Shown: positions 5,801 to 7,763 of the stretch, one piece after another
How positions within the stretch are numbered: the first letter of the stretch is position 1
Layout of the letters: each line of letters begins with the position of its first letter
Source of the DNA: Mobula hypostoma
Lineage: Eukaryota
NCBI RefSeq assembly: GCF_963921235.1
Contig: NW_026948140.1
Span: 62,001 to 126,000 of the forward strand
Direction of reading: 5' to 3'
DNA: 64,000 nt
Position numbers and translations under genes: made by a program
The notes under the pieces: generated by a model
What the model saw: only the letters and a program-made list of their open reading frames with translations
What the model was told of the DNA's origin: nothing
The model's database searches: none

Positions 5801-6200
5801 GTGTAACAGACAGCAAATTTTGTGGAGCAGGACACCAGGGATCCTATGGAGTTTCCCCAAACAGATTATGGAGACCAGCTGGCAGAATGTCATCACTTGA
5901 CTATACCGGATAGGTGGTTCTCCATCAGTTCCCCCTGTAGGCTTGCTGGCGGGTGAGATACCAGTTTTTCTGCACATTCACCACGCACACGACCACCCGT
6001 CCCTCACAGAGCGACAACATCCCACAGAGAATGATAATCCTCTCACAGAACGCCACCCCGAACCCCAGCAGACACAGGAACACTCATTCTGCCCCTCAGC
6101 CGCTTTCAGCTTCCATGGCTGTAAAAGGCGCGGCCCAGCAGTCACCCGCGCCGGAGGTTCGAGGGGCTTTTCCAGCTGCTCACCCAACTCCCGCACTCAC

Positions 6201-6293
6201 TTTGACCGAGAAGATGACGGCGATGAACCCGAGGCAGCAGAGGTTCATGTAGGAGAGGTTGAAGAGGGACCAGGGCAGATAATCGTGGGGCAT
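6201..6293 (-). CDS. IFITM/CD225 (dispanin) N-half exon B: [31 protein letters not shown]; 5' boundary uncertain (ATG 6293, acceptor giving 6302, or ATG 6509)
   Basis: [12 protein letters not shown].CCLG...FSVK matches the IFITM amphipathic/IM1 segment with the paired Cys; followed directly by GTGAGT donor (6200-6195) at the canonical IFITM intron position, phase 0. Confidence 0.88.
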
Positions 6294-6559
6294 AGCTAAA
6301 ACCTGCGCGTTCGGGCAGCGGCGGGCTTCGTGCAGGGGGCGGGGCGTGTGGTGGCGGGAGCGGGAGAGGGCCCTGGCCGGGGACTGGGGATGGGAGGGCC
6401 TGGGCGTGATGAGGGGTGGGTGTTGGTTAGTAGCGTTTGGGCTGGGACCAGGCTGTGGCTGGTGGGTGGGAGGGGGTTGGGGATGAGAGGAGATGGGGAG
6501 GGGACACATTGGGTTCTGGGATGGGGAAGTGCAGTGGTTGAGGGAGAAGTGAGTCGAGT

Positions 6560-6800
6560 GAGTGGTTGAAGGAGAGAGAAAGGGGCGGAGGGAGGGGGGA
6601 TACAGAGAGAGGGGGTCGGAGAGGGAGGGAGGAGGAGAGGGGTGGAGAGGGAGGGAGGAGGAGAGGGGCGTAGAAGGGGAGGGGGAGAGGGGAGAGGGGT
6701 CGCGGAGGGAGGGGGAGAGGGTCGCACAGGGAGGGAGGGGAAGGGGGAGAGGGTCGCAGAGAGAGGGAGGGGGAGAGGGTTGCAGAAGGAGGGAGGGGGA
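6560..6800. repeat. Polypurine G/A-rich low-complexity tract with gagaggg(g)tcgc units
   Basis: About 240 bp almost entirely G/A on the + strand with many GGG runs. Confidence 0.9.
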
Positions 6801-6811
6801 CAGGGTTGGAT

Positions 6812-7030
6812 AAGTAGCTGGTGCATATCACAAATCCTGGTTATGCAACTACTGACGCCAGGCAGACAATCTCTGAAGAATATTGATATGGCTGGGGTCA
6901 CCCGTCTTAAAAAAGATACTACCTAGAAGAAGGCAATGGCAATCCATTTCTGTAGAAAAATTTGTTACGAACAATCATGGACATGGAAAAGACCTAGATT
7001 GCCTATGGCATGGCATAGAAGAAACGAACG
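6812..7030 (+). mobile_element. Short RTE-related SINE-like element
   Basis: agaagaaggcaatggcaatccatttctg resembles the BovB/RTE GGAGAAGG(G/C)AATGGCAAACCAC motif. Confidence 0.45.
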
Positions 7031-7054
7031 GATCTCTGGGCGTGTAATCCTACC

Positions 7055-7365
7055 CGCGGCTACGGAGCCCGGGGGTTTATACCCTTGCCTAGGGTATGCA
7101 GACCGGGAGAGAGCGAGTTTTTCATTTCCTAGGTTACGAAACCCCGGGGTTTATCCTTCCCTTATGTACGGAGCTGGGCGTTTATTCACTTCTCAAGATA
7201 CGGAGGTAGGAGGTTATTTACCTCTTTACTGTAAGGAGCCCAGGGGTCATATATCCCCCAGGAGTTTATTTCCCTTTAGAACAGAGCCGGATGTTTATCC
7301 TCCCCAAGTACGAATCTGGAGTAATCCCGAGGTATGAGCCCGGGGTTTAATTCCCGCGTATCCCG
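7055..7365. repeat. Degenerate ~33-bp minisatellite, about 9 units
   Basis: Recurrent tacggagcc(c)gggg-tttat-ccct core, e.g. near 7061, 7135, 7167, 7199, 7233 and 7333. Confidence 0.75.
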
Positions 7366-7604
7366 ATACCGGGTAAAGATCCCAGGAATTTCGGCATCCG
7401 GTGGATTTGGCAGCGAACTTTTCATCGGCACTTCATTCCCAGCGGTGAAAATAAGGTCATTTGGCGAAGAGTCACCTCTTCCCACCCGACATTCTCCCTG
7501 CATCTCTGCGTCTCTTCTTTCTCAGCCCGACTGCTGACTCGCTCCTCCCCGGCTATTGTCACCCATCCCCGTCTCTTTCCCTCCTATCACCGATCCCTAC
7601 TCAC

Positions 7605-7763
7605 CTTAATCGAAAACACCATGGCAGTTAAGCCCAAGCAGCAGAAATTCATGTAGAACAGGTTGAAGATGGACCAGGGCAGGTGATCGCGGACGGGGAG
7701 CACGCCAGGCACCACCTGAACCGTGCGAGGAGTCATTGGGGTCTGGTCAGTTCTGTACTCCAT
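7605..7763 (-). CDS. IFITM/CD225 family first coding exon [54 protein letters not shown]
   Basis: ATG in strong context (agaATGG); 53 codons with [16 protein letters not shown]...FSIK; AAG|GTGAGT donor at 7604-7599; too short to appear in the ORF track; exact IFITM paralog not assignable. Confidence 0.93.

What the first reader, a model, noticed from the sequence alone, without database searches (positions are those of the whole stretch)
6195..7763. Two tandem IFITM first-half exons with no second exon between them: a possible variable-first-exon IFITM gene
Seen: two minus-strand exons 1.3 kb apart encode diverged versions of the same CD225 segment ([28 protein letters not shown] and [28 protein letters not shown]). 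Both keep the WS.FN, MN.CCLG and FS.K residues, both end in K|GTGAGT in phase 0, and each has a GC box upstream (7828-7834; 6336-6345). I find no SRDRK-type second exon between them or in 1-6194. Established: IFITM genes are normally two-exon units duplicated whole, and this segment holds the amphipathic helix and palmitoylated cysteines that set antiviral activity. Inference: both exons may splice to one shared C-terminal exon left of the window, giving alternative antiviral N-halves on a constant transmembrane tail, an arrangement like UGT1 or the protocadherins. The conservative substitution pattern argues that both are or were under selection.
Basis: partly seen in the sequence, partly recalled or inferred. 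Interest (0 to 1): 0.85.

Follow-up and report, generated by a model that had tools for sequence, protein, structure and literature searches.

The report
Ray IFITM gene, spare first exon
A devil-ray antiviral-type (IFITM-like) gene has a working first exon and, just inside its long intron, a second intact first exon of an old lineage that skates use as an alternative start, though its use in this ray is not shown.

Summary
Two minus-strand exons, A (7763-7605) and B (6293-6201), each encode the first half of a CD225/IFITM domain. Each ends in a phase-0 GTGAGT donor, and no second-half exon lies between them or in window 1-6194.

The predicted shared exon 2 exists 13.4 kb left of the window (C46:48637-48470). 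RNA contigs of 3 of 4 runs join exon A to it, giving exactly a 109-aa RefSeq protein, Mobula hypostoma dispanin A 2b-like.

Exon B is not a chance look-alike. Its nearest relatives are the first exons of "isoform X2" in two skates, which carry the same exon-2 residues as isoform X1. A bamboo-shark gene has the same type of first half.

A two-headed IFITM gene is therefore probably conserved in batoids. In this species, however, exon B is unannotated, and the single RNA contig over it runs unspliced through its donor.

Alternative-first-exon IFITM genes are already published for horseshoe bats and other mammals, so this is a new member of a known kind. The UGT1/protocadherin comparison overstates a two-exon case. 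I give 0.55 to exon B being a live alternative first exon and 0.33 to an unused relic.

The parts
7605..7763 (-). Exon A, coding part (53 aa). It holds a 25-aa N-terminal tail, then the first hydrophobic/amphipathic segment and the CC pair of the CD225 domain. The donor is AAG|GTGAGT, phase 0.
   Evidence: Sequence. Pfam CD225 33.0 bits. RNA contigs of X1, X6 and X7 stop at 7605 and continue with 30 letters identical to the start of exon 2. Together with exon 2 it equals P0016 / XP_062895188.1 exactly.
7828..7834 (-). GC-box-like CCCCGCC, 65 bases upstream of the exon A start codon
   Evidence: Sequence. Function was not tested.
6201..6293 (-). Exon B (31 aa), a B-type first half of the CD225 domain with a 3-aa N-terminus. 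The donor is AAA|GTGAGT, phase 0. It lies 1.3 kb into intron 1 of the exon A gene.
   Evidence: Sequence. Pfam CD225 35.7 bits. It is 22/28 identical to the first exon of skate isoform X2. One unspliced RNA contig covers 6046-6325.
6335..6344 (-). GC box CCCCGCCCCC, 42-51 bases upstream of the exon B start codon, in a CpG-rich patch (6200-6399: G+C 0.66, CpG obs/exp 0.88)
   Evidence: Promoter activity was not tested.
6571..6806 (.). C-rich (minus strand) low-complexity tandem array between the two exons. It keeps all minus-strand frames open by composition alone.
   Evidence: Tandem Repeats Finder. Three overlapping open frames.
1..6200 (-). Part of the shared intron. It continues left of the window to the acceptor of exon 2 at C46:48637. 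That is 19,563 bases from the exon B donor and 20,967 from the exon A donor. It holds retroelement fragments.
   Evidence: RT fragment at 133-582.

Best explanation
The window holds the 5' end of a two-exon IFITM-like gene (RefSeq name: dispanin subfamily A member 2b-like) of a devil ray. Exon A is the first exon in use. It is spliced over a 21-kb intron to one exon 2 that lies 13.4 kb left of the window, giving a 109-aa protein.

Exon B sits 1.3 kb inside that intron. It belongs to a second, old lineage of first exons (B-type: ..[12 protein letters not shown].., a very short N-terminus, no T..M in the LTAM position). I read it as an alternative first exon with its own GC-rich promoter. On this reading it splices from its phase-0 donor to the same exon 2 and would give an 87-aa isoform. 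That isoform would have a different amphipathic/intramembrane half and almost no N-terminal tail on the same transmembrane tail.

Shown: the anatomy, the exon A to exon 2 splice, and the kinship of exon B with the skate X2 first exons. Inferred: that exon B is still transcribed from its own start and spliced in this species.
For: (1) Anatomy. Both exons match CD225 positions 1-30 above cut-off. Both are phase 0. No exon 2 lies between them, and one exon 2 with a good acceptor (…ttctattag|) lies at C46:48637.

(2) Exon A to exon 2 join. In 3 of 4 runs laid (X1, X6, X7) a contig ends at 7605 with a 30-letter loose end identical to the + strand of the exon 2 start. The product equals XP_062895188.1.

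(3) Skate isoforms. A search with exon 2 among proteins of 30-98 aa gave 4 hits of 4 candidates. Two are 'isoform X2' of Leucoraja erinacea (93 aa) and Amblyraja radiata (96 aa). Their second halves are letter-for-letter those of isoform X1 of the same species. Their first halves are B-type: 22/28 identical to exon B, against 19/28 between exon B and exon A.

(4) Bamboo sharks. A profile-free search of 1.84 billion representatives with exon B gave 117 hits at E<=0.001. Among the closest at 76% identity is a 94-aa Chiloscyllium protein with ..[10 protein letters not shown].. and a short N-terminus.

(5) Tree. A maximum-likelihood tree of 20 first halves (28 columns) puts exon B with the two skate X2 exons and the two Chiloscyllium proteins, apart from all 11 batoid A-type rows, at 81/85 support. 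No column favours grouping exon B with exon A of its own species.

(6) State of exon B. It keeps an ATG with a purine at -3, an open frame, the CC pair and a near-consensus donor. Both copies of a ~102-kb segmental duplication keep it.
Against: No transcript joins exon B to anything. The only contig over it (X1 record 1, 280 letters, depth 4.54, 0 differences) covers 6046-6325, so it runs 155 letters past the donor unspliced. The X1 depth in the bins over exon B equals that one contig, so no second, spliced contig is hidden there. The exon A junction contig in the same run has depth 2404.6.

The two RefSeq proteins of this contig's copies 1 and 2 (XP_062895188.1, XP_062895190.1) carry no isoform label. 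A word-based search with exon B found no protein of 71-2000 aa, though that search is weak because it also missed obvious relatives.

The third paralogue on the contig (exon A'' at about C46:272.6 kb) has no exon B. The identity of exon B between the two duplicated copies (0/93) carries no weight, because 12.3% of all 93-base windows in that block are identical.

The skate start codon region is not kept. The ray ATG sits where skates have Asn, so the ancestral start may have been lost. The exon B donor has A rather than G at -1. The B-type clade rests on 28 columns with modest support. That the skate isoforms rest on transcript evidence is my recollection of how RefSeq builds isoforms; I did not check it.
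Confidence: 0.55

Rival explanations
1. Exon B is an unused relic. The ancestral batoid gene had A-type and B-type first exons, as skates still do. This ray lineage stopped using B, and the 93-base frame has simply not decayed yet. The RNA seen over it is intronic pre-mRNA of the highly expressed exon A transcript, or stray DNA.
For: The only contig over exon B is unspliced and about 500-fold lower in depth than the exon A junction contig of the same run. No isoform label appears on the RefSeq proteins of this contig. The paralogue at C46:272 kb has lost exon B altogether. The ancestral start-codon region is not conserved. The identity between the duplicated copies is uninformative. A 31-codon frame can stay open by chance, especially in C-rich sequence where all frames are open.
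Against: The start codon, frame, CC pair and GTGAGT donor are all intact in both duplicated copies. Exon B is 79% identical to skate B-type exons. I recall the skate-ray split as roughly 200 million years or more, which leaves little room for a long neutral phase. Contigs drop rare variants and only 4 runs were laid, so a spliced B form in another tissue or after induction is not excluded (caveats).
Confidence: 0.33
2. Exon B heads, or once headed, a separate transcript that ends in a different 3' exon, for example the degenerate exon-2-like frame at C46:34415-34260. On this reading two interleaved genes exist rather than one gene with two heads.
For: A second exon-2-like frame with a good acceptor (…ctttcttttag|) and an open phase-0 frame lies 14 kb beyond exon 2. 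In bamboo sharks a B-type first half has its own second half.
Against: That frame has lost the SRDRK motif (PGDQK instead) and two residues of the transmembrane helix. It lies outside the segmental duplication, whose second copy keeps exon B without it. It resembles the A-type exon 2, not the shark B-gene second half. In skates the B-type exon is paired with the ordinary exon 2.
Confidence: 0.05
3. Exon B is an internal cassette exon. The acceptor-like cag| at 6305-6303 would open a 102-base exon in frame with exon A, so inclusion would give a protein with two tandem first halves before exon 2.
For: The frame works out, with phase 0 on both sides. This is my own reading of the sequence.
Against: No joint from 7605 to 6302 appears in any of the 4 runs. 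The X1 contig runs straight through the putative acceptor. The skate X2 proteins start in the B-type exon. The tract before the cag is a poor pyrimidine tract with several G.
Confidence: 0.03

Closest known systems
Alternative-first-exon IFITM gene of the Chinese rufous horseshoe bat (rsIFITMa/rsIFITMb) and similar genes in other mammals (PMC11801718; sections 6 and 10 and found passages read)
   Same: One IFITM gene has two first exons and one shared second exon. One isoform has a truncated N-terminus. The paper presents alternative splicing as a route to IFITM diversity besides whole-gene duplication.
   Different: In the bat both isoforms were shown by RNA-seq, RT-qPCR, western blot and knockout. 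The stated variation is mostly in the N-terminus (79.4% identity overall; loss of the YEML sorting motif). Here use of the second exon is unproven in the ray. The two first exons also differ at 9 of 28 positions inside the CD225 half and belong to lineages that predate the skate-ray split. The paper's survey covered mammals only.
RefSeq isoforms X1/X2 of dispanin subfamily A member 2b-like in Leucoraja erinacea (X2 = XP_055505075.1) and Amblyraja radiata (X2 = XP_032894483.1)
   Same: The X2 first half is the nearest relative of exon B (22/28). The X1 first half is A-type. The second halves of X1 and X2 are identical within each species.
   Different: These are predicted models. I could not see their mRNAs, their evidence or the position of their first exons in the skate genomes. 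Their N-terminus is 11-14 residues before the D.LPW motif, against 3 in the ray.
Chiloscyllium punctatum / C. plagiosum dispanin subfamily A member 2b-like, 94 aa (XP_072447868.1, XP_043562309.1)
   Same: It has a B-type first half (..[10 protein letters not shown].., GL[VL]AV, short N-terminus) and groups with exon B in the tree.
   Different: It has its own, strongly diverged second half (SRDRKMDGDFDQAR...), so there it is a stand-alone gene and not a shared-exon arrangement.
Ordinary vertebrate IFITM / dispanin A genes: two-exon units duplicated whole (PMC3282796 passage; PMC3424830 passages)
   Same: The splice site in the loop between the two hydrophobic segments is conserved, and the exon A plus exon 2 gene is such a unit. 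The contig also holds whole-unit duplicates.
   Different: An extra first exon without a partner exon 2 sits in the intron.
UGT1A and clustered protocadherin loci (variable first exons, constant exons; recalled, no call)
   Same: The principle is alike: several first exons, each with its own promoter, spliced to shared downstream exons.
   Different: Those loci have arrays of many variable exons, each encoding a whole domain. Here there are two, and use of the second is not shown.

Membership tests
CD225 / dispanin subfamily A (IFITM-like) | Match to the Pfam CD225 profile above the gathering score | tested here: met
   Exon A 33.0 bits and exon B 35.7 bits against a cut-off of 27.1, both on profile positions 1-30 of 68. 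Exon 2 matches positions 25-68 at 45.9 bits.
CD225 / dispanin subfamily A (IFITM-like) | Conserved splice site in the loop between the two hydrophobic segments; two coding exons (PMC3282796 passage) | tested here: met
   Exon A ends ...SIK| and exon 2 starts |SRDRK. The junction is seen in RNA contigs of 3 of 4 runs. Exon B has a donor at the homologous codon and phase.
CD225 / dispanin subfamily A (IFITM-like) | Paired cysteines before LG in the first hydrophobic segment (palmitoylation sites Cys71/72 of human IFITM3, as cited in PMC11801718 section 6) | tested here: met
   CCLG is present in both exons. Palmitoylation itself is not testable here.
Interferon-induced IFITM (immune-related IFITM1-3 kind) | Interferon-stimulated response element near the start site; induction by interferon | tested here: inconclusive
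   No GAAANNGAAA on either strand in window 5900-8400. This was a simple pattern search over 2.5 kb only, and induction is not testable with these tools.
Alternative-first-exon IFITM gene (bat rsIFITM kind) | Two first exons upstream of one exon 2, with no exon 2 between them | tested here: met
   only exons A and B in the window, and the next second-half exon is at C46:48637-48470.
Alternative-first-exon IFITM gene (bat rsIFITM kind) | Both first exons joined to the same exon 2 in RNA | tested here: inconclusive
   Exon A: yes, in 3 of 4 runs. Exon B: one unspliced contig in 1 of 4 runs and no junction. Contigs drop rare variants. Skate isoforms X1/X2 show the pairing at protein level only.
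Alternative-first-exon IFITM gene (bat rsIFITM kind) | A separate transcription start for each first exon | not testable with these tools
   Only GC boxes and CpG content were seen. The upstream end of the X1 contig at 6325 abuts a site (6326) where the two duplicated copies differ, so it may be an assembly break and not a start.
Variable-first-exon cluster (UGT1A / protocadherin kind) | An array of many variable first exons spliced to constant exons | tested here: not met
   There are two first exons per unit. The third paralogue has one.

The most novel reading that the evidence does not exclude
Batoid fishes carry an ancient two-headed IFITM gene. Two first-exon lineages separated before skates and rays split, and perhaps before sharks and batoids split, since bamboo sharks have the B-type. 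Each lineage encodes its own version of the amphipathic helix, intramembrane segment and N-terminal tail. Both have shared one transmembrane exon ever since, and the whole unit was recently copied again in a ~102-kb duplication. This would be a far older, independent counterpart of the alternative-first-exon IFITM genes of bats. It would also differ in that the membrane-active half, and not just the sorting tail, is swapped.
Probability: 0.45. Interest if true: 0.6.

Novelty: new member of a known kind. Interest (0 to 1): 0.42.

Why it matters
IFITM proteins block virus entry. Their first exon holds the amphipathic helix, the palmitoylated cysteines and the N-terminal tail that sets where the protein sits in the cell.

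The 2024 bat study showed that alternative first exons can widen a species' IFITM repertoire without gene duplication, and it surveyed mammals only. A conserved A/B first-exon pair in skates and rays would show the same strategy arising independently in cartilaginous fishes and persisting far longer. It would also supply a natural pair of membrane-active halves on one constant tail for structure-function work.

If exon B proves unused in the ray, the locus still shows how an alternative first exon decays while its partner stays highly expressed.

Tried and rejected
I worked from fetched stretches instead.
- Exon B as a 31-aa query was under the tool's length limit. A 40-aa stretch of the same frame found no candidate among proteins of 71-2000 aa. 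This negative is weak, because the search also failed to return obvious relatives that share several words.
- Run search with window 6190-6350 (12 sampled words): no RNA holder listed. X1 holds 0.83 of the words and is labelled 'RNA?'.
- Laying: exon B has no cover in X6, X7 or X2. X2 has no cover on exon A either. A part without cover is no evidence either way. The small shares of X2-X5 were not borne out for X2.
- Constraint from the two duplicated copies: exon B shows 0/93 differences, but 12.3% of 93-base windows and 13.7% of 350-base windows in the block do as well or better. Rejected as evidence.
- ISRE/GAS motifs: no GAAANNGAAA and no TTCNNNGAA in 5900-8400.
- Ser at the NLS position as a B-type marker: it occurs in 6 of 104 segments. 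Those segments came from 102 of the 134 proteins held; the other 32 did not fit my pattern and were left out. The six include two non-elasmobranch-looking proteins, P0078 and P0088 (species not looked up). So it is not exclusive. Two earlier pattern scripts had faulty patterns and returned nothing.
- Earlier notes of this scan: nothing by place, sequence or words.
- Literature: 0 papers for IFITM + elasmobranch. 0 papers for IFITM + skate + isoform. 11 papers for IFITM + cartilaginous fish, 10 listed; I read passages of one only (PMC3424830), and those do not mention alternative first exons. I therefore found no printed description of the batoid arrangement in the held library.
- No structure or complex prediction was run, because none would bear on the open question.

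Full report
**Where the window lies**

The window is G000:C46:62001-126000, on a contig of 729,289 bases. NCBI records the Mobula hypostoma proteins XP_062895188.1 and XP_062895190.1 on a contig of the same length. The window's exon A plus the exon 2 described below encode XP_062895188.1 letter for letter. I therefore take the source to be this devil ray or its assembly.

**The observation**

On the minus strand, exon A runs from the ATG at 7763 to AAG|GTGAGT, with its last coding base at 7605 (53 aa). Exon B runs from the ATG at 6293 to AAA|GTGAGT, with its last coding base at 6201 (31 aa).

- Each peptive passes Pfam's CD225 cut-off on its own, on profile positions 1-30 of 68: 33.0 and 35.7 bits against 27.1.
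- The two GC boxes are present.
- A six-frame CD225 search of the whole 3.48-Gb assembly gave 48 matches at E<=10. Eleven are on this contig and only two, exons A and B, lie in the window.
- tblastn with a full-length relative found no second-half exon in window 1-7600.

**The missing exon 2**

A second-half exon lies at C46:48637-48470, with its stop codon at 48469-48467. That is 13.4 kb left of window base 1. It follows a good acceptor (…ttctattag|) and begins SRDRKVVGDIEG.

- The intron is 20,967 bases from the exon A donor and 19,563 from the exon B donor.
- Run X1 held 10 of the 12 sampled words of the exon B region. I laid four runs on window 6000-8000.
- In 3 of the 4 runs (X1, X6, X7) a contig stops at 7605 and carries on with 30 letters identical to the + strand of the exon 2 start. 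Depths were 2404.6, 1267.6 and 1417.3.
- These runs therefore contain spliced mRNA, and the exon A to exon 2 join is shown.

**Exon B in the RNA**

Only X1 covers exon B, with one contig of 280 letters, depth 4.54 and no differences from the window. It spans 6046-6325.

- It begins 32 letters upstream of the ATG and runs 155 letters past the donor, so it is unspliced.
- The X1 depth in the three bins from 6067 to 6267 is exactly that contig's figure, so no second, spliced contig lies there.
- The contig carries the window's letters at 6312, 6190 and 6186, the three sites inside it where the duplicated copies differ. It therefore comes from this copy.
- Its upstream end abuts the fourth differing site, 6326. 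That end may be an assembly break and need not be a transcription start.
- No joint from 7605 to the acceptor-like cag| at 6305-6303 was seen in any run.

Contigs drop rare variants and only four runs could be laid. This is absence of support, not proof of disuse.

**What exon B is**

A search with exon 2 restricted to proteins of 30-98 aa returned 4 hits of 4 candidates. Two are "isoform X2" of the same RefSeq gene name in the skates Leucoraja erinacea (93 aa) and Amblyraja radiata (96 aa).

- Their second halves are identical to isoform X1 of the same species, on contigs of the same length.
- Their first halves are not A-type. They read ..D[HY]LPWSLF[NS]LSYMNCCCLGLVA[TA]IYSVK after a short N-terminus.
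- Over the 28 aligned residues, exon B is 22/28 identical to each skate X2 exon, 19/28 to its own exon A and 21/28 to the Leucoraja A-type (counts made from the printed rows).
- All 11 batoid A-type rows keep T and M in the [LF]TAM position (LTAM in 10, FTAM in Pristis). None of the three batoid B-type rows (exon B and the two skate X2 exons) does.

A full HMMER pass with exon B over 1.84 billion representatives gave 117 hits at E<=0.001. Among the closest, at 76% identity, is a 94-aa protein of two bamboo sharks. It has ..[10 protein letters not shown].. and a short N-terminus, but its own diverged second half.

A maximum-likelihood tree of 20 rows on 28 columns groups exon B with the skate X2 exons and the bamboo-shark proteins at 81/85 support. 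The support is modest, the bootstrap had not settled, and the program draws the fork as open. No column supports grouping exon B with exon A of the same species.

I conclude, at roughly 0.8, that exon B belongs to an old B-type lineage of first exons. In skates that lineage is modelled as an alternative first exon on the shared exon 2. That RefSeq builds such isoforms only from transcript evidence is my recollection and was not checked.

**Other copies on the contig**

A segmental duplication of about 102 kb repeats the whole unit: A' at 172154-171996, B' at 170530-170438 and exon 2' at 151927-151760. Identity is 92.9-97.1% in 12 blocks of 800 bases or more. A' plus 2' equals XP_062895190.1.

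- Exon B is 93/93 identical between the copies. However, 12.3% of all 93-base windows in that block are identical, so this says nothing about selection.
- A third paralogue (A'' at about 272.6 kb, exon 2'' at about 240.1 kb) has no exon B.

**Points against a live exon B**

- It is seen only unspliced and at low depth.
- The RefSeq proteins of this contig's copies 1 and 2 carry no isoform label.
- It has been lost from the third paralogue.
- The skate N-terminal region aligns upstream of the ray's ATG, which sits where skates have Asn, so the ancestral start may be gone.
- The donor has A at -1.
- No canonical ISRE was found in 5900-8400 for either exon.

**Comparison with what is known**

The dispanin paper states that vertebrate subfamily A genes have two exons split in the loop between the hydrophobic segments (passage). 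Exon A plus exon 2 is such a gene.

Alternative-first-exon IFITM genes are in print. PMC11801718 (sections 6 and 10 read) reports the following:

- A horseshoe-bat gene has two first exons giving isoforms with distinct N-termini.
- Both isoforms are expressed and interferon-inducible.
- The same pattern occurs in 4 of the 8 bat species (of 22 examined) whose IFITM-like genes encode differing isoforms.
- Isoforms with distinct sorting motifs occur in 11 of 206 mammals.

The arrangement here is therefore a new member of a known kind, in cartilaginous fishes, with an older and deeper split between the two first exons. My searches of the held library found no paper on it. The UGT1/protocadherin comparison fails on array size.

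**Verdict**

The best reading, at 0.55, is a conserved two-headed IFITM gene whose second head is intact here but not shown in use. The main rival, at 0.33, is an unused relic of that arrangement. Interest is moderate.

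Noticed in passing
C46:43000-77000 versus C46:142000-186000 (the window covers part of copy 1): A tandem segmental duplication of about 102 kb at 92.9-97.1% identity repeats the whole gene unit (exon A, exon B, exon 2). 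Some blocks are rearranged: offsets range from 74 to 111 kb.
   Followed up: partly
C46:34415-34260, minus strand (L034:4415-4260), outside the window: A second exon-2-like frame lies behind a good acceptor (ctttcttttag|). It is open in phase 0 but has PGDQK in place of SRDRK and a shortened transmembrane stretch. It is probably a decayed exon 2 of a lost gene copy, and it lies outside the segmental duplication.
   Followed up: partly
window 6804-7004: This stretch is covered at depths of about 700 to 21,000 in all four runs, by many short contigs only 90-95% alike and with loose ends on both sides. It is an abundant interspersed repeat carried in many transcripts. It was not classified.
   Followed up: no
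window 6302-6305, minus strand: An acceptor-like cag| sits 9 bases before the exon B ATG, in frame with the phase-0 end of exon A. No RNA joint uses it in the four runs laid.
   Followed up: partly
window 133-582, 10786-12854, 13589-15022, 17911-20607, 24716-27458, 35730-36812, 61500-63143: Nine of 12 long open frames scanned carry reverse-transcriptase domains, one of them with an endonuclease domain. One further frame carries only a zinc-binding domain found in reverse transcriptases, and two have no Pfam match. Apart from the two IFITM exons, the window is mostly fragments of non-LTR retroelements. I only observed these.
   Followed up: partly
window 7030-7330, minus strand: By eye there are several loosely repeated units of the form ..ataaac(c)cc(g)ggctcc.. 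about 45-50 bases apart, with CpG obs/exp of 0.8-0.95. Tandem Repeats Finder did not report them at its default score.
   Followed up: no
P0017 (361 aa, Pelobates cultripes, named interferon-induced transmembrane 5): This frog protein model contains three separate CD225 first halves. It is probably a gene model fused across tandem IFITM genes.
   Followed up: no
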